Below are positions 4,607 to 16,187 of a DNA stretch of 64,000 nt, in pieces. The translations under genes were made by a program, and so were the position numbers. Source of the stretch: SAR116 cluster bacterium AG-390-L20 (GTDB lineage: Bacteria > Pseudomonadota > Alphaproteobacteria > Puniceispirillales > Marisalimonadaceae); contig QCHB01000005.1 of the NCBI GenBank assembly GCA_003278095.1, positions 43,977-107,976 of the forward strand. Direction: 5' to 3'. The first letter of the stretch is position 1. Every line of letters starts with the position of its first letter. Below the pieces are notes generated by a model that ran no database searches, was not told the DNA's origin, and was given only the letters and a program-made list of their open reading frames with translations.

Positions 4607-4819
4607 ATGTTTTTTGCAGTTATGTTAGTATGTTCGCCAATGAACTTAATCCACCACGAAAAAGAATGTTTTGGGATTGAGGATACTAAAGGTTATTATT
4701 CAACAGAGGCTAAATGTAATAAAAGAATAAATGAAATGGAAAATGAGTTGTTACACGTTATAAATTATCCAGCAGTTATTAGTAAGAATTGCATTAAAGT
4801 TAAATTAGAATCTGTATAG
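4607..4819 (+). CDS. hypothetical small protein with hydrophobic N-terminus
   Basis: 70-aa ORF, GGAGAA RBS upstream, N-terminal MFFAVMLVCSP signal-like segment. Confidence 0.35.
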   Translation: MFFAVMLVCSPMNLIHHEKECFGIEDTKGYYSTEAKCNKRINEMENELLHVINYPAVISKNCIKVKLESV

Positions 4820-5086
4820 CTTAACTAAAACAATTAAGAATTTTTATTAAATTCATTAGATAAACTCTTTTAAAATTATTAGTTTTGACAAACATTTATC
4901 GTTGTGTGCATAACCTTGCAAATGAGATACATTATAATTTATTATTTTCAACTAAACCAATTATCATATTCTAGATAAGTTACAATAATTGCTAAAATAA
5001 TATATGCACTAGCATACCATTTAAAAATATAGGGGTGTGGTTTTCCATTTTTTTTCAATTTGTGTCCTTTTAAAAAAATATTGTTA

Positions 5087-5290
5087 TTAAAATATGTACC
5101 CTATGCCAAGGCTAAGCAGCCAAAAAAAACCAAACAAAAAATGTAAAAAAATAGAAAAATAAATTGCTTTTAAAAACTTGTTTTTACCATTATCCCACCA
5201 ACTAACAAATATATATATAAACTTTGAAAATTTATTCTCTCCGTCATTCCACCAATTAGTGAATTTTTTTTCTGTCAGTTTTCTGTTCAT
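5087..5290 (-). CDS. hypothetical small membrane protein with internal repeat
   Basis: 67 aa; repeated unit FTNWWNDGENKFSKFIY / FVSWWDNGKNKFLKAIY followed by a hydrophobic tail. Confidence 0.4.
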   Translation of the reverse strand: MNRKLTEKKFTNWWNDGENKFSKFIYIFVSWWDNGKNKFLKAIYFSIFLHFLFGFFWLLSLGIGYIF

Positions 5291-5630
5291 AAGTCATTTT
5301 AGGACAAGCAATAAATATTTTCAATTTTTAAAATTTGAAGTATGGTATGACTTATATGTTAATTTAATTTTATTAAAAAATAAATCGTAACATTAGTGTA
5401 TAATTATACTTTAAAGTTTTAATCATCAATAAGAACATATATCATTTTATTTAACTATAAATTGGTACCCCATATTTGGATTGGTAAGTATAGAAGGGCT
5501 AATAAAAAAGAAAATATAACCCTTTAACAAAATAAAAAATGTTACAACACATAAAAATATTTTTAGTTCTTTTCTCATAATTAATACTTAACATGTATTA
5601 ATCAATTTTAATAATAGATTATTATTTTCA

Positions 5631-5999
5631 TTATTTACATTCATCAGATGCCACCCACTCTGGCAAAGGTTCACCTCCGGTGTAATGATTATGTGCCGGT
5701 GTTTCTCTAAACAGACAATATACATCTTCTTTAGTAATATTTAGTGTTTCTTTGAGAACTTCAGATATACCGTCAACAAGAGCTTTTTTTCTTCTCGCAT
5801 CTCTCCCGGGTCTCAAATCCACATCAATAACTGGAAGACCATCACCTATAAAACCAAAAGCCTCTCTAATAGAAACATAGTCATATTTAACTTCTTTAGG
5901 AGCTAATGTTTTTAATACAACTTCTCTTACTTTGCTGTGTATTTGTTTTTTAATATCTTTAGAAATACCTTCAGGAACATCTATTCTTATTAATGGCAT
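5631..5999 (-). CDS. tautomerase family protein (4-oxalocrotonate tautomerase-like, long form)
   Basis: Starts MPLIRIDV (Pro-1 after Met removal), typical of the tautomerase superfamily; GGAG RBS upstream. Confidence 0.65.
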   Translation of the reverse strand: MPLIRIDVPEGISKDIKKQIHSKVREVVLKTLAPKEVKYDYVSIREAFGFIGDGLPVIDVDLRPGRDARRKKALVDGISEVLKETLNITKEDVYCLFRETPAHNHYTGGEPLPEWVASDECK

Positions 6000-6194
6000 T
6001 TTATCTCCTATAACTATTTTTAAATATTAAGTAGGAATATACTAATCTAACCAGATATTATCCATAAAGTATTATCCATTTAGTTTATGCATCTAGTAAT
6101 AAAGCAGAGTTATTGTAATCAAAATTATTGGTACATGATTAGTGCTCAACATGTTTATGTAAGTCTATGTAATTCAGAAAGAATGAAGTTATTT

Positions 6195-6980
6195 TTATTT
6201 AAAAATTGCTGAAATGTTTCCAAACAAACTAGAGTTAACCTCTATCAGTTTTTTATCAACTATTGGAATTGGAGGACCATATGCCCCTGTCAAAATAAGA
6301 TCCCCTTTTTTTATTTGATTATTCATCTTAGCTTGTTCAATAACAAACCACTCAACCGCTGATAACATGTCAATAGGCCATATTTTATTTGTCCATTTAT
6401 CTATTATGATTTTATCATAAATCAATTTTAGGTCAGTAATTTCTCCAAATTCTGGTTTGTCTATTCCAAGACCACAAACCACGCCGGCATTTATTGCATT
6501 GTTTGAAATATGTTCTGCACCATAGGGTTTATCACCATAAAATATTAGATTATGTATTTCAATTATTGGGTGAATTGTGTCAATTGAAGCTAATATATAT
6601 TCAAAACTAACTTCTTTAGGATGTAAATCACGATTGAATCTTATACCAAATTCAGCTTCCATTGCTGGATTTGAATAATTTTCTTTATTTAATTTTATTC
6701 CATTTGAATGAAGTTCACTTTCCCATAAACGTCCCCAAGCTGGATAGGAAAAACCGTATTTTTTTTGTGTTTGTTTTGAAATACTACCAATTTTGTAACC
6801 AATTACTTTTTCACCTCTTTTGATTCTGAGATCAGTTAGTATTGATTGAATTTTATAAGCATCTGAGATACTAATCTTGATATTTTTATTTTTAAACAAA
6901 GCACTATGATTTTTCGCATCGTAATCGTTTAAAATTTTCTGGGCATGGCTCTCTAATTTATTTTGAGTTAATTCATTCAT
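6195..6980 (-). CDS. 2-keto-4-pentenoate hydratase / FAH-fold hydratase-decarboxylase family
   Basis: 261 aa; GYKIG motif and overall MhpD/HpcG-like pattern; adjacent to the tautomerase gene. Confidence 0.65.
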   Translation of the reverse strand: MNELTQNKLESHAQKILNDYDAKNHSALFKNKNIKISISDAYKIQSILTDLRIKRGEKVIGYKIGSISKQTQKKYGFSYPAWGRLWESELHSNGIKLNKENYSNPAMEAEFGIRFNRDLHPKEVSFEYILASIDTIHPIIEIHNLIFYGDKPYGAEHISNNAINAGVVCGLGIDKPEFGEITDLKLIYDKIIIDKWTNKIWPIDMLSAVEWFVIEQAKMNNQIKKGDLILTGAYGPPIPIVDKKLIEVNSSLFGNISAIFK

Positions 6981-7247
6981 ATTGTATTTTTATTTAATTA
7001 AATATTGTGCCTAACTCAACATTAAGAGTATTATGAATTTAGTATAGAATAAACGTATATCTCATTAATAAAATAACTAACTTATATGATCAGTTATGTT
7101 ATGATGAGAATTATTTATACCAGAAGAATATATTTTTTAGTTTTCAATAATATAATCCAAAATAGTAATTGCTTTGCTTAAAGCTAATTTAGACATCATT
7201 AAAAAATTTTTAAGGATAAAGTATAGACGTCCAACAAACAAAATATT

Positions 7248-7997
7248 TTATAAATTTTTGATCAATAATGAAAAACCAATAACAATTAAAATCATTAAAA
7301 TAGTTTTTCTAAATATTATGTTAGATAATTTCATCCTAATTTTAGTTCCTAAATACTGTCCTAACAAAGCTGGTGCAGTAATGATCAGACTCACCAACAA
7401 ATCATAAAAGTTACCTAAACCATGAAAAATAAGGGATGAATATAATGGTATAGAAGCTAAGAAATACATTGTTGCTGTAGTTCTTATAAAATTCTCTTTT
7501 GCTAAATTTAATGAGACTAAAAAGGTAATTATAGGCGGTGCGTAGAAGGTAGACACCCCCCCCAGAATACCTGAAAAAAAACCAATAAAGATTGATATTA
7601 TTTTCTCATATTTTGGTTTAAGCCAATTTAGATTTAATCCTAAAAAGTTTAAACCCGTAAAAATAATAATTGTCAACGCAATTATTATTGAAATTGTTTT
7701 CAAATTTAAACTTAATATTAGTTTTCCACCGATAAGTATACCTAAAAAAAGTGTTATAAACATTGGAAAAAACCTATAACTGCTTATTCCTCTTTTGATA
7801 TCCATTTGGATGAAGTTTGTTATAATAACTGGAAAGCATAAAAACATCATTGCTTTAGTAGGTGGCAAAATAAAAGCTATCAATGGAACTGAAAACATAG
7901 ACATTCCAATACCAACCGATCCTTTAACTATTCCTCCAAAAAATACAGAGCACAAAATTACAGAAAAAGTAATAGTTTCAAAATATTCTAAAAACAT
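7248..7997 (-). CDS. TauE/SafE (TSUP) family anion exporter membrane protein
   Basis: 249 aa, about 8 hydrophobic helices, GGIVKGSVGIG and GILGGVS glycine motifs typical of DUF81/TSUP. Confidence 0.75.
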   Translation of the reverse strand: MFLEYFETITFSVILCSVFFGGIVKGSVGIGMSMFSVPLIAFILPPTKAMMFLCFPVIITNFIQMDIKRGISSYRFFPMFITLFLGILIGGKLILSLNLKTISIIIALTIIIFTGLNFLGLNLNWLKPKYEKIISIFIGFFSGILGGVSTFYAPPIITFLVSLNLAKENFIRTTATMYFLASIPLYSSLIFHGLGNFYDLLVSLIITAPALLGQYLGTKIRMKLSNIIFRKTILMILIVIGFSLLIKNL

Positions 7998-8025
7998 ACT
8001 TTTATATTAAGTGGAATGATCACGC

Positions 8026-8037
8026 CTCGTAAAGTGA
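8026..8037. repeat. orphan CCTCGTAAAGTG box (5' box of type-A repeats) at the distal edge of the cassette array
   Basis: cctcgtaaagtg matches the start of A1 (tctcgtaaagtg), A3 (cctcgtaaagta) and A4 (cttcgtgaagtg), but the rest of the repeat is absent. Confidence 0.5.
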
Positions 8038-8073
8038 ATTGAGAAAGACCTTATTTTTATTATTTATTAATTT

Positions 8074-8412
8074 TTAAAAACCAGAGTATTTAACATTTTC
8101 AAAAAGATTAAAATCACTCTGAGTTGACATTCTTCCTTGAGTTTCACCTCCAACTATTGTCATTGTGGCTCCCATTTCTGTGATCTGTTTTTTTAAATCT
8201 GAATATTCACCTGCTTGTTTAAAAGATTTATCCCATTCTTTTTTTGACTTCCAAACAGTTAAAAATTGAAAAGAGATATCTGAAATATCAATAAATAATG
8301 AAAAATTTAAACCATCTTTAAATAAAGAATCTGTATAATTTATACAAAAAAATTTAAAAGAGTCCCTTGAAACCTTGTTTACAAATTTAAAAACATGGGT
8401 TCTCGTATACAT
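8074..8412 (-). CDS. hypothetical small protein, family 2 (paralog of 8752..9075)
   Basis: FLTVWKSKKEWDKSF..ITEMGATMTIVGGET aligns with MFHLWKDKSSLIKTR..IKEMGGIVSKSEGET of the neighbour; possible ABM-like alpha+beta barrel. Confidence 0.5.
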   Translation of the reverse strand: MYTRTHVFKFVNKVSRDSFKFFCINYTDSLFKDGLNFSLFIDISDISFQFLTVWKSKKEWDKSFKQAGEYSDLKKQITEMGATMTIVGGETQGRMSTQSDFNLFENVKYSGF

Positions 8413-8470
8413 ATTTTTTCCTTTTTTCTCATTTTTAATTTTTTAAATATAATTTAATGAAATTAGATTA

Positions 8471-8752
8471 TCAATCTAAACAGTACTTAATTGGTCCCTC
8501 AAATGACCTTATTTTTAAGTTAGTTTTCAATTCATTAATTTCTAGATTATTCATGATTTTTATTCTATCTGTAGATTTCTTATCTTTAAATCTAGCAACA
8601 ACAAACGCTGACATATCATTTACTCTGAAAACTTTTGCAGACTTTTGACCCTATTCAAAATTTTTTGGAAAATGAGTAATTCTTAAATAATCTAAAAAAA
8701 TATTTAATTGAAGTTTAGTTGGAGCTGTTATTTCTACAATTCTAACGTACAT
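8471..8752 (-). pseudogene. small ORF interrupted by an in-frame TAG (8651-8653)
   Basis: My translation: MYVRIVEITAPTKLQLNIFLDYLRITHFPKNFE*GQKSAKVFRVNDMSAFVVARFKDKKSTDRIKIMNNLEINELKTNLKIRSFEGPIKYCLD*. Its ATG overlaps the TGA of the upstream ORF (TGATG at 8750-8754). Confidence 0.45.
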
Positions 8753-9075
8753 CACTTAACCTGTACATTAGCATTATTTATTAGTTTTGACATTTCAACT
8801 ACCGTTTCACCCTCTGATTTACTTACTATTCCTCCCATTTCTTTTATATCATTCCAAAACTTATTGGAAAACTTTGTTCTTGTTTTTATTAAAGATGATT
8901 TATCTTTCCATAAATGAAACATATCTATTTGAGTATCTGATACTTCCGTGAAGCACCTAATTAACAAGCCTCCACTTTCATTAAACAACTCTTCACTCAT
9001 ATTTTTGAGGGACATAACTATAGAATCTTTGGCTAATTTATTTTGTAATTTTACAGTAACTGTTATTCCATACAT
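8752..9075 (-). CDS. hypothetical small protein, family 2
   Basis: 107 aa, paralogous to 8074..8412 (see that entry). Confidence 0.5.
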   Translation of the reverse strand: MYGITVTVKLQNKLAKDSIVMSLKNMSEELFNESGGLLIRCFTEVSDTQIDMFHLWKDKSSLIKTRTKFSNKFWNDIKEMGGIVSKSEGETVVEMSKLINNANVQVK

Positions 9076-9112
9076 ATTTTAAATTCCATAAGCATTTTGA
9101 TACTGACATATT

Positions 9113-9244
9113 TTAATCAAATCGAACATATCTCGTAAAGTGTTAAACATTTTAATGTCTAATATAAAGTCTTTCAGAAAGGCTAATGCAATCGAAGTAA
9201 TAGTTTTAGTTGTTGTCGCTAAGTAAGGCTGTATGAGCCAGGAG
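9113..9244. repeat. type-A structured repeat, copy A1 (most diverged)
   Basis: tctcgtaaagtgttaaacattttaatgtctaatataaagtct...ggctaatgcaatcgaag...aggctgtatgagccagga aligns with A2-A5; abuts the stop of ORF 9245..9583. Confidence 0.7.
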
Positions 9245-9583
9245 TTAGACTCTCAAATCCTGAAGAACAATGTTTCTACTTGCCTCTATAACAGGGTCTG
9301 CGGCTTGAAGTTCTTTCATAATGTTTTTGGTAAAATTTTCTAATTCATTTTGAGATTGTTTAAATGAAGTTGGACTTTCATACTCAAACAAAATAGATAT
9401 TTTAAATGTTCCCTTCATATTCCATATTTGATTAAGACAAAATCTTGTACATCCTTTTTTTTTAAGTTTGTCAAACAATGCTGTACCATTATCTTCCCAA
9501 ATTCTTCTAAAAAGAAGCATTTGCGCTTCTGTCTTGAAAGTAAAAGTATTGTAAGTCATTAAATTTGCTTTTGTATCCAACAT
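9245..9583 (-). CDS. hypothetical small protein, family 1 (WN-x-G...FEY motif), diverged member
   Basis: KKKGCTRFCLNQIWNMKGTFKISILFEYESPTSFKQSQ aligns with the other three members. Confidence 0.55.
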   Translation of the reverse strand: MLDTKANLMTYNTFTFKTEAQMLLFRRIWEDNGTALFDKLKKKGCTRFCLNQIWNMKGTFKISILFEYESPTSFKQSQNELENFTKNIMKELQAADPVIEASRNIVLQDLRV

Positions 9584-9702
9584 AAACTCCTAGTCTGCAA
9601 AAATTTATAATAAATTAAGGTATCAATCAAACCTATCTATGTTAAGTAAAAAGGAACCAAAACTTTAACACTTTGTTTCATCGTTTTGATTAAAGATAAT
9701 AA

Positions 9703-10045
9703 AATTTTATAATTACATTAAGTTAAATTTTAGATTAATGCGATTGAGAAGCAGTTCCATACTCTACTTATGCATCGTGTCCTATCACAATCAAGCTATA
9801 TATTGAGATATGGATACATATGGCATTGTCAATAGGCACCATATGTTTCACACTTTGTTTTACATCTTAATTTAGCGTTCTTAGTATAGAAAAATGGGTC
9901 ACTAAATATGTATAAATATACCTAATTATAATAACACTTCTATGTATCACTTAAGTGTAACACTATAAGTGTAATCCTGCCCCACACGTGTGCCACCCGA
10001 CCCTTGTCGGTATAGTATACATAGGCTTTGCAGCAGATGAAGGTA
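9703..10045. repeat. type-B non-coding module, copy B1 (contains decayed tRNA-Leu 3'-end fragment)
   Basis: 9710-9735 matches 14851-14876 at 25/26. 9862-10040 is roughly 85% identical by eye to 15012-15194. Ends in tatagtatacataggctttgcagcagatgaagg. Confidence 0.75.
9736..9751 (-). repeat. degenerate copy of the tRNA-Leu 3' end
   Basis: taatgcgattgagaag versus tggtgcggctgagaag (12/16), in the same position relative to the conserved flank ttaaattttagat as the exact copy at 14877. Confidence 0.5.
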
Positions 10046-10112
10046 TTTACAATAATTAGACAGTGAAATATTCTACTATTAATCACTTTAACTTTTTAAA
10101 TAGGACACTTTT

Positions 10113-10457
10113 ATGACTTCTTCAAAACTAGTAAATTATACCACAAGAGAATTTATGTCAGACCATGAACTTGAACATTACATAGTTAAACAAAACGAAA
10201 TATTTACACCAAAAGTTGTTGAAGAATTTACGAAAGCTGGAATGTTAAGAAGAGTTTTGACAAAACTTTGGAATAAAGAAGGTGTCCATAGAGTTGGTAT
10301 ATTATTTGAGTATAGAGACGAAAAAGCATATGTTGCATGTCAAAGTCTATTAGAAAAGCATTATATCCCAATGGTAAAAACATTTATTACTAAAGTAATA
10401 GGAAGCCGGGGTATAGTAGTCCATGAATTTAGTTCTGAAGAATTTACGAAGGGATAA
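10113..10457 (+). CDS. hypothetical small protein, family 1 (only plus-strand member)
   Basis: KAGMLRRVLTKLWNKEGVHRVGILFEYRDEKAYVACQ; lies between B1 and A2. Confidence 0.6.
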   Translation: MTSSKLVNYTTREFMSDHELEHYIVKQNEIFTPKVVEEFTKAGMLRRVLTKLWNKEGVHRVGILFEYRDEKAYVACQSLLEKHYIPMVKTFITKVIGSRGIVVHEFSSEEFTKG

Positions 10458-10463
10458 AATAAC

Positions 10464-10580
10464 TAAAGTGTTTACCATTTTAATGACTAATACAGAGTTA
10501 TACAGCAAGGTTAATGTAATCAGATTCAATTAATATCAGCTATAGTTTTAGTGGTTGTGTCAGTCTGAATGAGTCAGGAA
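10464..10580. repeat. type-A structured repeat, copy A2
   Basis: taaagtgtttaccattttaatgactaatacagagtta..cagcaaggttaatgtaatcagattca..cagtctgaatgagtcagga. Arms 10484-10500 and 10561-10576 pair at 12/16. Confidence 0.75.
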
Positions 10581-10594
10581 TTTATAGTCTGATT

Positions 10595-10969
10595 TTATTT
10601 ATTATTTTCATACCACTTATCTAAGTTTATTATTTCATCTTTTGGTTTTAAACTTGACGTAAACCTCTCTACTTCAACAACAAAAAAACTAGCATACTTA
10701 TCTGTTCCCCAACTTTGAACTTGCTTTTCTACATCTTCCTTTGAGTTAGCTAAATAATGAGAACAAAAAAAGGTACTATTGTTTCCAAGCCACGTTTGAG
10801 AGCATGTTGCAAACTCTCCAACTGCATCTTCAGCCCATTTGCCGTGAGTAACACCTTTTGGATACAATTTGTTAAAAGAGGATTTATATTCATCTGACTT
10901 TTTCTCTGACAGAAAGTCATAAATAACAATATAGTTATTCTTTCTATTTTCAGTATTTGTTTTCACCAT
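10595..10969 (-). CDS. hypothetical protein
   Basis: 124-aa ORF between A2 and B2; no motif recognised. Confidence 0.5.
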   Translation of the reverse strand: MVKTNTENRKNNYIVIYDFLSEKKSDEYKSSFNKLYPKGVTHGKWAEDAVGEFATCSQTWLGNNSTFFCSHYLANSKEDVEKQVQSWGTDKYASFFVVEVERFTSSLKPKDEIINLDKWYENNK

Positions 10970-10992
10970 CTACCTATCAATACTTTTGCAAT

Positions 10993-11280
10993 AGCATCAG
11001 TTTATGTGTTCCTAAATCTGTGTCAACAGGCACATAATGGTCTGCCGTTTGGTGTACCCTTAGAAATCTTCTGGTAATGTAAAGAACCTTCAAATTTATA
11101 CACATATAAATATACTCAACTACATACTATCTTCTTCATTAGTCAGTTAATATATTACAATTAATATGTAGTCATTTAGGTGTGCAGTTATATGTATTAT
11201 TTAAGTGACCCTACCCACAGATGGGACATAGGACGGTGTACGTATAGTATACATAGGCTCTGCAACAGATGGAGTGTTAA
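10993..11280. repeat. type-B non-coding module, copy B2 (left end truncated, no tRNA fragment)
   Basis: gcatcagtttatgtgttcctaaatctgtgtcaacaggcacataatggtctgccgtttggtgtaccc and tatagtatacataggctctgcaacagatggagtgttaa match B4; the middle is diverged. Confidence 0.7.
11036..11058. repeat. tandem direct repeat, 12-bp period (aatggtctgcc g tttggtgtacc)
   Basis: Same position within the B module as 14983-15005. Confidence 0.6.
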
Positions 11281-11636
11281 TAATTATAATCTAATAAATT
11301 AAGTGTTCTTGTAGTTAATCTTTTCACAGTGATTTTCTTAAAGAAATTTTCATTCTCTTTAAAATGTTTTTCTATAACTTTTTGTCCCTTAACATAGGCA
11401 TTTTCGTCTTTATATTCAAATAACGTTGACAAAGCAAAACCACCTTCTTTGTTCCATACCTGATTCAATCTAAAGCGCATCAATCCAATTTTTTTCATGC
11501 TTTCATAAAAGTTTGAACCTGTTCTTTCTACATAATTTATAAATAATTCCATTTCGGCTTCACTAGAAAAATCTATTAAAACATGACTAATTAGTTTTGC
11601 TGATGGTATTGAATTTTTATGTTCGTTCATACACAT
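11277..11636 (-). CDS. hypothetical small protein, family 1
   Basis: KKIGLMRFRLNQVWNKEGGFALSTLFEYKDENAYVKGQ; its TAA stop (11277-11279) lies inside the AGTGTTAA box that ends B2. Confidence 0.6.
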   Translation of the reverse strand: MCMNEHKNSIPSAKLISHVLIDFSSEAEMELFINYVERTGSNFYESMKKIGLMRFRLNQVWNKEGGFALSTLFEYKDENAYVKGQKVIEKHFKENENFFKKITVKRLTTRTLNLLDYNY

Positions 11637-11697
11637 AACCTATTTACTAATTTAAAATATTAAAAAATAAAATTATAACTTTGTAGTTACTATATTA

Positions 11698-12000
11698 TTA
11701 TATTCCTTCAACCATAAGTATGTTTGAAGTAGAATTTTCTAATCTTACTTTTTTATAAGGTCTGTATTCTTCACTATCATACCATTTCATAGCTGATTTT
11801 TTGTCAGGAAATTTTACTAATACCATTCTAGTAGGTTTCCATAAATTTGTTTCCAAAGAATCTATCTCTCCACCCCGAATTAAGTATTCACCACCATAGC
11901 TTTCAATCATAGGTTTAACTTTTTCCATATATTTCTGGTATTCTTCTATGTTGTGTATATCCACGTCACCAATCATATAAACTGACATAATCGTCTCCAT
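11698..12000 (-). CDS. DUF1330-like protein
   Basis: SVYMIGDVDIHN..EEYQKYMEKV.P.IESYGGEYLIRGG...MVLVKFPDKKSAMKWYDSEEY matches the DUF1330 pattern as I recall it; the true start may be the ATG at 11985. Confidence 0.65.
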   Translation of the reverse strand: METIMSVYMIGDVDIHNIEEYQKYMEKVKPMIESYGGEYLIRGGEIDSLETNLWKPTRMVLVKFPDKKSAMKWYDSEEYRPYKKVRLENSTSNILMVEGI

Positions 12001-12116
12001 GCTTTCTTTTTCATATTTATATCGCTAATCAAATACCTACAAACAAAATATATAAACTACCAAACAATAAAAAATCAATTATGACAATTTTCATAAAGCT
12101 ATTCATGCTAATAGTT

Positions 12117-12259
12117 TAATCCAAAGAAACACTCCTCGTAAAGTATTAACCAATTTAATGACTAATACAGAGTCATGCAGCAGGGTTAATGTAATCAGAG
12201 TCAAAATGGGTGCATGAGATGTTGTTATAGTGATTGAATGAGTCTGTATGAATCAGGGA
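12117..12259. repeat. type-A structured repeat, copy A3
   Basis: taatccaaagaaacactcctcgtaaagtattaaccaatttaatgactaatacagagtcatgcagcagggttaatgtaatcagagtca...tgagtctgtatgaatcaggga. Arms 12159-12175 and 12239-12255 pair at 14/17. Confidence 0.8.
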
Positions 12260-12357
12260 TGGGTGTGGTAACACTTATATCAAAATTCGTAGAAAGCTAT
12301 TAAATGGAAATCCAACTCTGAGTATTTTATAGGATAGATTACAATTTAAATTTGTAA

Positions 12358-12783
12358 TTATTTGGCGAATACAGTAAGTGGTCCAAGACCTTCAGCTCCA
12401 GCAATTACAGCATACACTATTGTGGGCGTTTTAGCTGTGTTTGTAACAGTGTGAGGTGAATTTGTTGCTTCAACAAACGTATCTCCGGCCTTATAGACTA
12501 CCTTTTTTCCATTAGGACGTTCTGAGGTAACCTCCCCTGACATTATATGCACGATAAGGGGTGCAGGATGAGTATGCTTTGGTAATTTTCCACCCACTGG
12601 AAATATTACCTGAACAATAGTCATTTTTGGAGTACCTTTAGGGTAAGAAATAGCTTCACCTGCACTAGATTTAGAACTTGAATGTAACACTGTTACTTGT
12701 GGTTTTAATTGTTTTGAATTGGCCACATTTGCAAATACTGCTATAGTTAATATAATTATCAATTTTGTAATTAATTTATTCAT
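12358..12783 (-). CDS. secreted cupin-domain protein
   Basis: N-terminal signal-like MNKLITKLIIILTIAVFANVANS; cupin motifs HTHPAPLIVHIMSGEV and GDTFVEATNSPHTVTN. Confidence 0.75.
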   Translation of the reverse strand: MNKLITKLIIILTIAVFANVANSKQLKPQVTVLHSSSKSSAGEAISYPKGTPKMTIVQVIFPVGGKLPKHTHPAPLIVHIMSGEVTSERPNGKKVVYKAGDTFVEATNSPHTVTNTAKTPTIVYAVIAGAEGLGPLTVFAK

Positions 12784-12892
12784 TAGATTTCCCTTTTAAC
12801 TTATTTAAACCAAAAATTTATACTCATTTATAATGATTTGTCTGTAAAGTATTTACATATTTAAAAATATAAGACTGTACAAATAATAAGCA

Positions 12893-12945
12893 TATATGAG
12901 GGTGTAGCTATATATGTATAGTTAGCGTCTGTAGCAGATGGGATT
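12893..12945. repeat. type-B module fragment, copy B3 (3' end only)
   Basis: tatatatgtatagttagcgtctgtagcagatggg aligns with tatatacataggctctgcagcagatgggg of B4. Confidence 0.5.
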
Positions 12946-13006
12946 TTAGAATTGGTATAGTACGTAGATGAATATTATTGTTAGCCCAAGCATAAGTATA
13001 AACTTC

Positions 13007-13360
13007 TTATATACTCCAATCATATTTAAACTCAGAAACCACTATTCCCCTATTATTAAATATTTTGAAAACAAATTTTGCTAAGGTTGGACAATTTTCA
13101 GGTGTGAAAGCAACATTTAAAATATTTTCACATTTTTTAAAAGATGTCTCACTGTCATATTCAAAAACTTGAGTAATTCTATGATGTCCTTTATTCCATA
13201 CTTTAGAAATTACATGACGAATTAAACCATTTTGCTTCAATTGAGAGTAAAGTTTATCTGTCCATATTTCATCAAGAGATTTCAAAAATAAATCTAATTC
13301 ATTTTCAGTTGAAAAATCCATATACAGTGAGTTAAGAAAAGCCGTATCTTTATTTTTCAT
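13007..13360 (-). CDS. hypothetical small protein, family 1
   Basis: KQNGLIRHVISKVWNKGHHRITQVFEYDSETSFKKCE. Confidence 0.6.
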   Translation of the reverse strand: MKNKDTAFLNSLYMDFSTENELDLFLKSLDEIWTDKLYSQLKQNGLIRHVISKVWNKGHHRITQVFEYDSETSFKKCENILNVAFTPENCPTLAKFVFKIFNNRGIVVSEFKYDWSI

Positions 13361-13441
13361 TTATTTCTAAAAACCTTAAAGTTTCATTTTTAAAAAATTA
13401 GTTTTATTTTTTACATATTAATTTTTTATATCTATATATCC

Positions 13442-13581
13442 TAATCCAAACAAACACCCTTCGTGAAGTGTTAACTATTTTAATGACTCTTACAGAGTCA
13501 TATAGCAGGGTTAATGTAATCAGAGTCATTGATATATGAAATATAGTTGAAGTGGCTTTATGAAACTGAGTGAGTCAGGGA
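13442..13581. repeat. type-A structured repeat, copy A4
   Basis: taatccaaacaaacacccttcgtgaagtgttaactattttaatgactcttacagagtcatatagcagggttaatgtaatcagagtca...actgagtgagtcaggga. Contains a perfect 7-bp palindrome, tgactct tac agagtca, at 13484-13500. Confidence 0.8.
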
Positions 13582-13596
13582 TTAATAAAACTATCT

Positions 13597-14742
13597 CTAA
13601 TTAATCTCTTCTACTATTTTAGAAACAACACCTTTTTTGAATAAGTTTCCATATTTATATTTTTCATCAACTGAAAACATAGTTAAGATTGTGTTTTTAG
13701 TAGTATTAATAACATTAAAAAATCCACCATGACCTGTCATAGTTAATGTTGGTACGCCATTTACTTCGTATACCCAAAACTGATATCCGTATCGTACTCC
13801 ATCTCTTTTTGTCTCAACTGCATTTTCAATACCTTCTTTATAAAATTTACCTAAACACGTATTATTAATCATTTCGTCATGTATAAATTGACCAAAGTTT
13901 GACCAATCTAATACACTCATTGTCAACCTAGCTTGGGCAACTGTAATTCCTTTTTTATCTGAAACCCAATGCATGAATTTATTTTGGCTAAATTTTTTAA
14001 AAGCATTTTCATAGAAAATTTGACTTGCTGGTCTGTTTGTTAAATCAGTAATCATAATTGAAAGTGCGAATGGGTCTGATGAAAAATAAAAATGTTTTGA
14101 GCCTTGTTCTCTGTCATTATCCTTTAAAATTGAAATAGCCTTAAACATACTAGCTTTTCCTTCATATTTTCTCAGCCCCATTGCCATTTGGTTCATCTTT
14201 CTTCTTAGCTTATAATCATTTTGTATTGGCGCCACTCCACTATTCATCTGCAGTGTGTTTCTTATAGTTATTTTAGAGTATGGAGTTTGCTTGAGTGAAG
14301 AAGAATATTTACCTAATTCATCATCTAATGATTCAATTTTACCGATGCAAACAAGACTACCAATTGCCGTAGCCAATGCTGTTTTTGCCATAGACATACC
14401 GTGTAATATCGTATTACTATCAATATTTCTTTTTTTATTAAATCTTGCATAAACTAAATCATTATTTTTTCTTATTAACGCAGCTAAATTGTTTTTATCT
14501 TTAAAAATATTGTCATAATTTTCTTTTTTCAAATTGACACTATCAAGATTTTGTTTTTCCCCATAACTATGAATATTTATTTTAAAAGGACCAAACTTTT
14601 TTGTTTCATGAACATTAAAATAGGGCTTTATTTGCCTTTTCCACATTTTTTTAGGCCCATGGTCAGCGTAAGAAATAAAGAAAAATGAAAAATAAATTGT
14701 TATAGATAAAAATAACTTGAACATAAATAGCCTCAAATACAA
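13597..14742 (-). CDS. serine hydrolase, beta-lactamase/transpeptidase-like family, membrane-anchored or secreted
   Basis: 381 aa; hydrophobic N-terminus; S-x-x-K motif SMAK in GMSMAKTALATAIG. Confidence 0.7.
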   Translation of the reverse strand: MYLRLFMFKLFLSITIYFSFFFISYADHGPKKMWKRQIKPYFNVHETKKFGPFKINIHSYGEKQNLDSVNLKKENYDNIFKDKNNLAALIRKNNDLVYARFNKKRNIDSNTILHGMSMAKTALATAIGSLVCIGKIESLDDELGKYSSSLKQTPYSKITIRNTLQMNSGVAPIQNDYKLRRKMNQMAMGLRKYEGKASMFKAISILKDNDREQGSKHFYFSSDPFALSIMITDLTNRPASQIFYENAFKKFSQNKFMHWVSDKKGITVAQARLTMSVLDWSNFGQFIHDEMINNTCLGKFYKEGIENAVETKRDGVRYGYQFWVYEVNGVPTLTMTGHGGFFNVINTTKNTILTMFSVDEKYKYGNLFKKGVVSKIVEEIN

Positions 14743-14876
14743 TTAATTAATATGTTAATAATAAACATATTAATTAATTTTAAAACAAAAAAATAAGCAC
14801 CAAATTTTTCAATCTATTTCACAGTGTTAATTTAAAAAAATAAAATTTAATAATTACAGTAAGTTAAATTTTAGAT

Positions 14877-14893
14877 TGGTGCGGCTGAGAAGA
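14877..14893 (-). repeat. exact 17-bp duplicate of the tRNA-Leu(GAG) 3' end (candidate att core)
   Basis: tggtgcggctgagaaga is identical to 16101-16117 (3' strand of the T stem, acceptor 3' strand and ACCA). Confidence 0.85.
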
Positions 14894-14982
14894 TTTAAGT
14901 TAATCTAAGATGCACCACTTGAGGTTGTATACAAGCTCTATGCTCAGTTTATGTATTACCGAATCCGTGTCAACAGGCACAT

Positions 14983-15005
14983 TTTGGTCTACCGTTTGGT
15001 CTACC
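14983..15005. repeat. tandem direct repeat TTTGGTCTACC g TTTGGTCTACC
   Basis: Perfect 11-mer twice with a 12-bp period, about 90 bp from the 14877 core copy. Confidence 0.8.
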
Positions 15006-15201
15006 CTAAATGTTACATCTTAATTTAGCGTTCTTAGTATAGAGAACATAGAAATGGATATGTGTAAATATACCTAAACTATAATAACATTTATATGTAT
15101 CATTTAAGTGTAACACTATAAGTGTAATCCTACCCCACAAGTGAGCCACCCCACCCTTGTACGGATATATACATAGGCTCTGCAGCAGATGGGGTATAAA
15201 T

Positions 15202-15316
15202 AGTGTTAACCATTTTAATGTGTCATAGAGGTTCAAGCAGTAGGGTCTATTTAATCAGAGCCAATGGTACATTGGATGTGTTTATAGTAGTTGTTTGAGT
15301 CTATGTGAATTAAAGA
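15202..15316. repeat. type-A structured repeat, copy A5 (fused to B4)
   Basis: agtgttaaccattttaatgtgtcatagaggttcaagcagtagggtctatttaatcagagcca...tgagtctatgtgaatta. The stem cataga/tctatg shows two compensatory changes relative to tacaga/tctgta of A3. Confidence 0.7.
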
Positions 15317-15507
15317 TGGAGAGTTAAAGTTTACTACCACTAACTTTTATTAATTAATTTAATTTGTTTTTCATTCATATTTTTTAACTGATTTGGTAAA
15401 GTTATTTCATCAGTCCATAAAAGCTTAATATTCAAGCCAACATTAACATATTATAATGATACGTAATCTAGGCTTCTTATAAATATTCAACCTATAAATA
15501 TTAAACC

Positions 15508-15864
15508 TTAAGCATTAACCTTCTTTTTAGATTTCCAAATTAAAAAAACTAGAGATAAAACTTGAGCTGCAAGTAAAAACCACACAAGTCCTGCTATTGA
15601 ATTTTCATCTGCATTTTCAGCACTTGCTGCAACCCATAAAAGAGGAGAAAGGAAAAACAAGCTTAAAAAATTGACTCCAATTGCTATATACCCTAAAAGC
15701 GCACTTTTTCCATAAGATAATGCAGCAAGAATTGCAGAAACTACAGTAAGGTAAACACCGATAACTGGAATAAAAATGGATATCCCGGCTAGAACAATAG
15801 ATAATATACCCATTACTTTACCACGAGAACCTTCTTGTGAAACAACTTCATTAGATTCATTCAT
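15508..15864 (-). CDS. hypothetical small membrane protein
   Basis: 118 aa, 3-4 predicted hydrophobic helices, lysine-rich C-terminus; only ORF inside the mini-element. Confidence 0.55.
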   Translation of the reverse strand: MNESNEVVSQEGSRGKVMGILSIVLAGISIFIPVIGVYLTVVSAILAALSYGKSALLGYIAIGVNFLSLFFLSPLLWVAASAENADENSIAGLVWFLLAAQVLSLVFLIWKSKKKVNA

Positions 15865-16012
15865 AATTTTTTCCTTTAGTTCAATTATAAAATTAAATAA
15901 TTAATTTACATAAAAATAAGTCTATTTAAATGTACTTAAAAAATTTAAATAGTCAATTTTTAAAATTAAAAGTAATTTTATAATCAAATATGGAATGTGA
16001 AGGGAACATTTA

Positions 16013-16035
16013 AATGGTCTACTATTTGGTCTACC
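16013..16035. repeat. tandem direct repeat aatggtctact a tttggtctacc
   Basis: Same motif, orientation and 12-bp period as 14983-15005; lies 65 bp from the tRNA 3' end. Confidence 0.75.
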
Positions 16036-16100
16036 CTCCAAGGACACATTACAAAATATGCTTACACATCAACTACTTAGGATGACTGAATCACTTGAAA

Positions 16101-16187
16101 TGGTGCGGCTGAGAAGACTCGAACTTCCACGGGTTTTACCCCACAGCGACCTCAACGCTGCGCGTCTACCAGTTCCGCCACAGCCGC
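16101..16187 (-). tRNA. tRNA-Leu (anticodon GAG), CCA encoded
   Basis: Reverse complement is GCGGCTGTGGCGGAACTGGTAGACGCGCAGCGTTGAGGTCGCTGTGGGGTAAAACCCGTGGAAGTTCGAGTCTTCTCAGCCGCACCA. Features: 7-bp acceptor stem, anticodon loop TTGAGGT, long variable arm. Confidence 0.9.

What the first reader, a model, noticed from the sequence alone, without database searches (positions are those of the whole stretch)
9703..14893. A second, decayed tRNA 3'-end copy with a better-conserved outer flank suggests tandem accretion of elements at the same tRNA
Seen: 9736-9751 (taatgcgattgagaag) matches the tRNA 3' end at only 12/16. The 26 nt just outside it (taattacattaagttaaattttagat, 9710-9735) match the equivalent flank of the exact copy (14851-14876) at 25/26. 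So the tRNA-like core and its outer flank were propagated together as part of the type-B module. This is not what one simple integration predicts, because in a single insertion the outer flank is unique chromosomal DNA. It fits repeated insertion of related elements whose attachment region carries both sequences, or internal duplication within the island.
Basis: partly seen in the sequence, partly recalled or inferred. Interest (0 to 1): 0.65.

Follow-up and report, generated by a model that had tools for sequence, protein, structure and literature searches.

The report
Stacked integrase-less elements at tRNA-Leu
The decayed tRNA-end copy and its conserved flank are the displaced attachment site of an older mobile element, pushed away from tRNA-Leu by later insertions of related elements in a marine SAR116 bacterium; this is an ordinary, well-known way for genomic islands to grow.

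Summary
Window 14877-14893 is an exact 17-nt copy of the tRNA-Leu(GAG) 3' end. Window 9736-9751 matches it 12/16, and all four differences are G/C-to-A/T changes. The adjoining 26-nt flanks match 25/26.

The reading of tandem accretion is supported, with corrections.
- The 'outer flank' is not chromosomal DNA. It is the P' arm of an attP-type site, made of an IHF-like box and a pair of 7-9-nt direct repeats.
- In relatives L004, L007, L011 and L046 the same flank and its DUF6974 gene sit directly against the genuine tRNA. L006 holds an intermediate displaced copy (15/16).
- In relatives a tyrosine integrase (Pfam DUF6538 + Phage_integrase) starts right after such arms. The 64-kb window has no integrase.
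- The island is larger than assumed, about 4820-16100 (11.3 kb). TauE (7248-7997) lies inside it. In 12 more distant SAR116 genomes the flank gene lies 40-49 nt from the tRNA.

Each unit carries matching arm repeats at both ends: TGGTCTAC in 14894-16100, TTTCACA-type in 9752-14876.

This is a new member of a known kind, comparable to tycheposon-type islands, Dehalococcoides ssrA islands and integrase-less cis-mobilizable elements.

Two things remain unexplained: the type-A modules, and an inverted attP copy behind every intact integrase in relatives.

The parts
16101..16187 (-). tRNA-Leu(GAG) gene. Its last 17 nt (16101-16117) are the attachment core O in its current attL position.
   Evidence: ARAGORN; Rfam tRNA 50.9 bits; exact repeat.
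16001..16100 (.). P' arm of unit E2. It holds the direct repeats TGGTCTACTATTTGGTCTACCCT (16015-16037) and an IHF-like box cATCAACTACTTA (16067-16079).
   Evidence: 92-93% identical to the stretch between the integrase start and tRNA-Leu in L003 and L009. Repeat table.
14894..16100 (.). Unit E2, the youngest insertion (1207 nt, no integrase). Order: P arm, A module, ORF118 (15508-15864, -), a 33-41-nt relic of an inverted DUF6974 gene (15981-16021), P' arm.
   Evidence: Bounded by exact 17-nt direct repeats. TGGTCTAC repeats at both ends, 14985-15007 and 16015-16037. Inverted match to 9394-9434 (pair I2).
14877..14893 (.). Displaced attachment core O1, an exact copy of the tRNA 3' end.
14748..14876 (.). 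Repeats TTTTTCA/TATTTCA(CA) lie at 14805-14823.
   Evidence: Same arm family as the tRNA-adjacent arm of L004, L007, L010, L011 and L046.
9752..14876 (.). Unit E1 (5.1 kb, composite). Its P arm (9752-10057) has repeats GTTTCACA/GTTTTACA at 9845-9864. Cargo: three DUF6974 genes (10113-10457 +, 11277-11636 -, 13007-13360 -), DUF1330 (11698-12000 -), cupin (12358-12783 -), a beta-lactamase-fold gene (13597-14742 -) and ORF124 (10595-10969 -). Inner P-arm relics lie at 10964-11289 (no core) and 12917-12958.
9736..9751 (.). Displaced, decayed attachment core O2 (12/16; four G/C-to-A/T changes).
   Evidence: In register with the genuine tRNA end of L004, L007, L011 and L046, and with the 15/16 displaced copy of L006.
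9608..9735 (.). Repeats CTTTAACA/GTTTCATC lie at 9663-9682. The DUF6974 gene 9245-9583 (-) follows it.
   Evidence: Orthologous block [A module - DUF6974 gene - arm] abuts the genuine tRNA in L004, L007, L011, L046 and L100.
4820..16100 (.). The whole variable island (11.3 kb) between the conserved gene 4607-4819 (+) and tRNA-Leu. Its distal, older part holds a tautomerase-family gene (5631-5999), ORF261 (6195-6980), TauE (7248-7997), and the small ORFs 8074-8412 and 8752-9075.
   Evidence: The homolog of 4607-4819 lies 40-49 nt from the tRNA end in 12 genomes. Pfam.
15197..15335 (.). Type-A module, about 140 nt. The other copies are at 6037-6197, 9108-9260, 10441-10598, 12111-12275 and 13436-13596. 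In intact elements it is the distal part of the P arm. Its role is unknown.
   Evidence: nhmmer finds only these six copies in the 64 kb. No consensus RNA fold on either strand. It lies inside the 466-nt repeat of the Levibacter element.
14946..14973 (-). Sigma-70-like TTGACA-N16-TAAACT inside the conserved P-arm box GTGTCAACAGGCAC, reading towards the core, the P' arm and the next gene. A second copy lies at 10999-11026.
   Evidence: the consensus scan as a whole is at chance level. The box is invariant in 8 aligned modules. Function is inferred.

Best explanation
The region is a stack of small integrative elements that entered, one after another, the 3' end of tRNA-Leu(GAG) next to lipB in a low-GC SAR116 (Puniceispirillales) genome.

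Mechanism. Each incoming circle carried an attP-type site, P'-O-P.
- O is the last 16-17 nt of the tRNA.
- P' carries an IHF-like box about 20-35 nt from O and two 7-9-nt direct repeats about 75-87 nt from O.
- P carries the same repeats about 90-94 nt from O.
A tyrosine integrase with a DUF6538 N-terminal domain recombined O with the tRNA end. This rebuilt the tRNA and pushed the previous core, together with the previous element's P' arm, further into the island.

Consequence. Each junction between neighbouring units is a complete attP-like 'type-B module': the older unit's P' arm, then O, then the newer unit's P arm. That is why the tRNA-like core and its 'outer flank' recur together.
- 14877-14893 is the core displaced by the youngest unit (14894-16100).
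- 9736-9751 is an older displaced core, decaying by G/C-to-A/T changes.

The window's units have no integrase. They are decayed or cis-mobilizable remnants that could move only with an integrase supplied in trans.

Shown: the repeats, the orthology to tRNA-adjacent DNA in relatives, the empty sites, the integrases in relatives, and the matched arm repeats. Inferred: that the repeats bind integrase, the order of the events, and any present-day mobility.
For: - Exact and decayed cores with a 25/26 flank match. The module homology runs 458 nt.
- Empty site: the flank gene lies 40-49 nt from the tRNA in 12 genomes. Island length is 0.1-7 kb in others, 11.3 kb here and 17.7 kb in the complete Levibacter genome.
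- Window 9584-9751 is orthologous to the DNA abutting the genuine tRNA in L004, L007, L011 and L046. L006 has the displaced copy at 15/16.
- Integrases of 375-380 aa (DUF6538 + Phage_integrase) start right after the P' arm in at least 10 genomes, and truncated relics occur in others.
- Arm repeats sit at fixed distances from the core. Their sequence differs by lineage (TGGTCTACC, TTTCACA, TTTGTACAT and others) but is the same at both ends of a unit.
- Close relatives (lipB 94-97% identical) have four different tRNA-proximal states.
- The DUF6974 gene next to the flank is 96% identical in a contig whose lipB is only 70% identical, which points to horizontal transfer.
- In metagenome contigs the arms are far deeper than the cargo gene ORF118. 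Alternative P' arms abut the tRNA. One contig joins 16100 to 14877, the junction expected of a circle or a tandem pair.
Against: - No integrase lies in the 64-kb window.
- No excision product specific to this strain was seen. The single 16100-to-14877 joint rests on one metagenome contig with only 46 nt on its shorter side.
- The two full B modules of the window are each other's nearest relatives apart from the L006 ortholog, so an old internal duplication is not excluded.
- E1 is a mosaic. Its inner P-arm relic has TGGTCT-type repeats, unlike its ends, so events other than simple stacking also shaped the island.
- Cassette order differs between the window and L004.
- The empty sites are in more distant relatives (lipB 65-70% identical), not in the same species.
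Confidence: 0.85

Rival explanations
1. Internal segmental duplication. One B module, with its tRNA fragment, was copied inside the island by unequal or replicative recombination. On this view the second copy records no separate integration.
For: In the module tree the two window modules group together with the L006 ortholog at 100/99 support. They share a long, locally conserved P-arm core.
Against: - The modules are only 72-73% identical.
- Their arm repeats differ (TGGTCTAC versus GTTTCACA) and match the other end of their own unit.
- The older flank abuts the genuine tRNA in four relatives and in one metagenome contig.
- The same junction is shared with L006.
Confidence: 0.07
2. The B modules are chiefly regulatory or RNA-coding cassettes (a promoter plus leader, or an ncRNA) spread by homologous recombination. 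The tRNA-like piece is a functional part of them, not an integration scar.
For: An invariant box GTGTCAACAGGCAC holds a TTGACA-N16-TAAACT match that reads towards the downstream gene. The modules always precede a gene.
Against: No Rfam match. The core equals the tRNA end exactly and identity stops at its edges. Integrase genes and empty sites tie the modules to site-specific integration. A promoter inside an attP arm is compatible with the main explanation.
Confidence: 0.05
3. Chance similarity in an AT-rich genome.
For: A 12/16 match alone occurs by chance about twice in this window.
Against: It lies in register next to a 25/26 flank, inside a 458-nt alignment. It is orthologous to genuine tRNA ends in relatives.
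Confidence: 0.01

Closest known systems
Tycheposon-type tRNA islands of Prochlorococcus (Hackl et al., bioRxiv 10.1101/2020.12.28.424599)
   Same: A streamlined marine bacterium. Tyrosine-integrase elements enter a tRNA 3' end, and later arrivals push earlier ones into the island. Partial tRNAs and integrase fragments are scattered through the island, and variability is highest next to the tRNA.
   Different: No replication module (primase or helicase), the tycheposon hallmark, was seen in the intact relatives. The Levibacter element carries caspase-like, MORN-like and GYD genes. It is closer to that paper's 'cryptic' elements that have only an integrase. The host clade and target tRNA are different.
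Dehalococcoides ssrA genomic islands and cis-mobilizable elements (PMC3146451)
   Same: Tandem islands are delimited by direct repeats of the 3' end of a small RNA gene. Extra nucleotide conservation surrounds each repeat. Some units lack an integration module and are read as cis-mobilizable elements moved by accretion.
   Different: Those islands use a serine recombinase (DsiB, CcrB-like) and the tmRNA gene. Here the recombinase is a tyrosine integrase, the target is tRNA-Leu, and the units are much smaller (1.2-5 kb).
P4/lambda-type attP architecture (own knowledge)
   Same: A core flanked by arms that carry direct-repeat arm-type sites and an IHF-like WATCAANNNNTTR box. As in P4-like islands, the integrase gene starts beside the P' arm, downstream of the tRNA.
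   Different: Binding has not been tested. Intact elements in relatives also carry a second, inverted attP copy right after the integrase stop codon. I do not know of this feature in those systems.
Integron cassette arrays
   Same: An array of mostly single, small, same-strand genes separated by repeated recombination-type modules. No recombinase lies inside the array.
   Different: There is no IntI and no hairpin-forming attC. The A modules have no consensus fold. The sites are 450-nt attP-like modules, and the anchor is a tRNA.

Membership tests
tRNA-targeting tyrosine-integrase integrative element / genomic island | Direct repeat of the tRNA 3' end bounding the inserted DNA | tested here: met
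   17/17 at 14877-14893 against 16101-16117, and a decayed 12/16 copy at 9736-9751.
tRNA-targeting tyrosine-integrase integrative element / genomic island | Tyrosine integrase encoded next to the attachment site | tested here: not met
   No integrase homolog in the 64-kb window (tblastn E<1e-3). It is met in relatives at the same site: L003, L005, L009, L012, L032, L035, L036, L041, L057 and L069. The window therefore holds remnants or integrase-less derivatives, not autonomous elements.
tRNA-targeting tyrosine-integrase integrative element / genomic island | Unoccupied site in related genomes | tested here: met
   The flank gene lies 40-49 nt from the tRNA end in 12 genomes. These are more distant relatives (lipB 65-70% identical).
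tRNA-targeting tyrosine-integrase integrative element / genomic island | Arm-type integrase sites in P and P', and an IHF site | tested here: inconclusive
   Paired repeats sit at fixed distances, co-vary between the two ends of a unit, and differ by integrase lineage. IHF-like boxes are present. Protein binding was not tested.
Cis-mobilizable element (CIME) | Flanked by intact att sites, with no integrase or transfer genes | tested here: met
   E2 (14894-16100) has exact 17-nt cores and both arms, and carries only ORF118.
Cis-mobilizable element (CIME) | Excision or mobilization by an integrase supplied in trans | not testable with these tools
   One metagenome contig joins 16100 to 14877. 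This could be a circle or a tandem pair in another strain.
Tycheposon | Integrase together with a replication module (primase/helicase) | tested here: not met
   Pfam marks on the complete Levibacter island show no replication genes, and there are none in the window.
Integron | IntI integrase with attI, and hairpin-forming attC sites | tested here: not met
   No integrase in the window. RNAalifold predicts zero pairs for the A modules on either strand. The B modules are attP-like.

The most novel reading that the evidence does not exclude
The low-GC SAR116 clade may carry a distinct cassette platform anchored at a tRNA. On this reading, one- or two-gene mini-elements, each with a 450-600-nt attP-like B+A module, are stacked and shuffled at tRNA-Leu by DUF6538-type tyrosine integrases acting in trans. 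The intact elements have their integrase flanked, in the circular form, by two inverted attP copies of about 0.5 kb. That layout resembles the yeast 2-micron plasmid, and it could serve inversion, amplification or antisense control of the integrase.
Probability: 0.15. Interest if true: 0.7.

Novelty: new member of a known kind. Interest (0 to 1): 0.4.

Why it matters
The result explains a puzzling repeat pattern by a known process. It also documents that tRNA-Leu/lipB is a hot spot of gene gain in the abundant, streamlined low-GC SAR116 lineage. I found no paper in the held library that describes this island.

The site shows, at single-locus resolution, how integrase-less remnants with intact attachment sites accumulate and decay. 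It also offers a set of natural attP variants whose arm repeats co-vary with integrase lineage, which could be used to study integrase specificity.

The inverted attP copy behind the integrase and the A modules are leads for follow-up.

Tried and rejected
- Rfam, at gathering and E-value thresholds, found only the tRNA.
- RNAalifold on 14 A modules gave no pairs on either strand. I therefore dropped the structured-RNA and attC-like readings of A.
- Viral contigs hold neither the core+P-arm pattern nor the integrase, so there is no support for a phage.
- The integrase has no sequence match in the PDB.
- A possible third, more decayed core at about 8033-8049 (gtgaattgagaaagac) needs gaps to reach about 12/17, and the B model does not find it. 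I list it only as a possibility.
- The far end of the island after 4819 shows no recognisable core remnant.
- The loose ends at 15981 in metagenome contigs are paralogous DUF6974 genes, not junctions.
I could not check the window's own genome for an integrase or for further A/B copies.
Full report
**Observation.** The tRNA-Leu(GAG) gene lies at 16101-16187 on the minus strand.
- Its last 17 nt, TGGTGCGGCTGAGAAGA on the plus strand, recur exactly at 14877-14893. Identity stops on both sides.
- At 9736-9751 the sequence TAATGCGATTGAGAAG matches 12/16. The 26 nt to its left match the 26 nt left of the exact copy at 25/26. The same position beside the genuine tRNA matches only 7/26.
- A 12/16 match alone is at chance level, since two others occur in the window. 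This one sits in register beside the flank, inside a 458-nt alignment of 9608-10046 with 14748-15197 at 72% identity.
- All four differences are G/C-to-A/T, as expected for neutral decay in a genome of about 30% G+C.

**Context and true borders.** A lipB-based scan of one genome per species places the window in the low-GC SAR116 clade (Puniceispirillales). The closest lipB matches are 94-97% identical single-cell genomes.
- In 12 more distant relatives the homolog of the small gene at 4607-4819 ends 40-49 nt from the tRNA end. This is the empty site.
- In others the gap is 0.1-7 kb. It is 11.3 kb in the window and 17.7 kb in the complete Candidatus Levibacter genome.
- The island is therefore about 4820-16100. 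A sixth A module at 6037-6197 also lies left of TauE.

**What the flank is.** In L004, L007, L011 and L046, and in metagenome contig L100, the block [A module - DUF6974 gene homologous to 9245-9583 - flank] lies directly against the genuine tRNA-Leu. In the alignment the window's decayed core stands exactly where their tRNA end stands. L006 has the same block displaced, with a 15/16 core.

Across 60-odd genomes the DNA next to the tRNA end has a regular anatomy wherever the site is occupied:
- an IHF-like box (WATCAANNNNTTR) 20-35 nt from the core;
- two 7-9-nt direct repeats, one helical turn apart, 74-87 nt from the core.

On the other side of displaced cores the same repeats recur 90-94 nt away. 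The repeat sequence differs between lineages: TGGTCTACC, (C/G)TTTCACA, TTTGTACAT, TTGTCTACC, GTACGACC and others.

Right after such an arm, a 375-380-aa tyrosine integrase (Pfam DUF6538 plus Phage_integrase) begins in L003, L005, L009, L012, L032, L035, L036, L041, L057 and L069. The box I TGMR, HGFRH and SY motifs are visible in the sequence. Truncated relics occur in L001, L002, L008, L012, L029, L030 and L065.

The 'outer flank' is thus the P' arm of an attP-type site. A type-B module is a complete junction: the older unit's P' arm, the core, and the newer unit's P arm.

**Units in the window.**
- **E2 (14894-16100)** has TGGTCTAC repeats at both ends, 14985-15007 and 16015-16037. Its P' arm is 92-93% identical to the arm in front of the L003/L009 integrases. 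Where the integrase should begin there is only a 33-41-nt relic of an inverted DUF6974 gene, then ORF118.
- **E1 (9752-14876)** has TTTCACA-type repeats at both ends, 9845-9864 and 14805-23. Inside it are P-arm relics without a core (10964-11289 and 12917-12958), so it is itself composite.
- **E0** lies left of 9735.

No integrase homolog exists anywhere in the 64 kb. Cargo consists of four DUF6974 paralogs, DUF1330, a cupin, a beta-lactamase-fold protein, TauE, a tautomerase-family protein and unassigned small ORFs.

**Population evidence.**
- Genomes with 94-97% identical lipB show four different tRNA-proximal states.
- The DUF6974 gene beside the flank is 96% identical in a contig whose lipB is 70% identical, which argues for horizontal transfer.
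- In marine metagenome contigs the two arms of E2 are 20-100 times deeper than ORF118, and other P' arm types abut the tRNA.
- One contig joins 16100 to 14877 through the 17-nt core. This is the junction expected of an excised circle or a tandem pair; the evidence is weak, with 46 nt on the shorter side.
- Metatranscriptome contigs cover the beta-lactamase-fold gene at 13571-14753.
- A and B modules were found only together, in such arrays, in 64 metagenome contigs.

**Mechanism.** The best-supported reading is successive site-specific integration at the tRNA-Leu 3' end. Each event rebuilds the tRNA and displaces the previous core together with the previous element's P' arm. Loss of integrases and mutational decay follow.

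The near-core part of the arm is better conserved than the decayed core. Related elements share it, and it may still be under selection: an IHF-like box and a promoter-like TTGACA-N16-TAAACT in the P arm read towards the next gene. That last point is inference.

An old internal duplication is the main rival. The two window modules are sisters in the module tree. The orthology to tRNA-adjacent DNA and the matched arm repeats at unit ends argue against it.

**Comparison with known systems.** The process matches the tycheposon island model. It also matches the tandem ssrA islands of Dehalococcoides, where conserved nucleotides around each direct repeat and integrase-less cis-mobilizable units were described.
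- Tycheposon membership fails on the replication module.
- Integron membership fails on IntI and attC hairpins.
- E2 meets the structural definition of a cis-mobilizable element.
- I found no paper describing this SAR116 island.

**Unexplained.**
1. The A modules have no conserved fold and contain GAGTC/GACTC boxes. In intact elements they form the distal P arm, yet in the window several are separated from the B end by one or two genes.
2. In all 12 relatives or contigs with an intact integrase and enough sequence, a second attP copy (partial P' arm, intact core, P arm, A) lies inverted right after the integrase stop codon. In the complete Levibacter genome it is 98.1% identical over 466 nt to the element's distal end.

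**Limits.** Nothing is known about integrases or module copies elsewhere in this genome. No binding or recombination was tested.

Noticed in passing
L012:5758-6131 (= L145, reverse-complement coordinates 15082-15564); also L009, L032, L035, L036, L057, L069, L085, L116, L135, L138: Every intact integrase at tRNA-Leu is followed, right after its stop codon, by an inverted attP-like copy: a partial P' arm, an intact 16-nt core, the P arm and the A module. Sometimes a convergent DUF6974 gene lies between. In the complete Levibacter genome this copy is 98.1% identical over 466 nt to the element's distal O-P-A end. The circular form would therefore have the integrase between inverted repeats of about 0.5 kb.
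   Followed up: partly
window 6037-6197, 9108-9260, 10441-10598, 12111-12275, 13436-13596, 15197-15335: Type-A modules occur only in this island within the 64 kb and have no consensus RNA fold on either strand. Four of five directly abut the stop codon of the preceding minus-strand gene. The B end runs straight into the A start at 15197-15216 and in relatives, but one or two genes lie between them elsewhere.
   Followed up: partly
window 15981-16021 versus 9394-9434: A 41-nt inverted match (90%) shows a relic of a DUF6974 gene beside the P' arm of E2, at the place where relatives L003 and L009 have their integrase start.
   Followed up: partly
window 8020-8049: The left box of the A module (CCTCGTAAAGTG) is followed by aattgagaaagac, which may be a third, strongly decayed tRNA-end core between the small-ORF units and TauE. 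It is not statistically supported.
   Followed up: partly
L007:8957-9166 and L034:9191-9397: The small gene that marks the conserved flank in most genomes (the homolog of window 4607-4819) lies inside the island in L007 and is inverted in L034. Even this flank gene has therefore been rearranged in some lineages.
   Followed up: no
L145:7073-8416 and 10001-12100: The cargo of the intact Levibacter element includes two caspase-family (Peptidase_C14) proteins, one with faint MORN repeats. They may be defence or cell-death genes.
   Followed up: no
window 13597-14742: Close relatives of the beta-lactamase-fold cargo gene (381 aa, with an N-terminal hydrophobic segment) are represented in several marine metatranscriptome assemblies.
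   Followed up: partly
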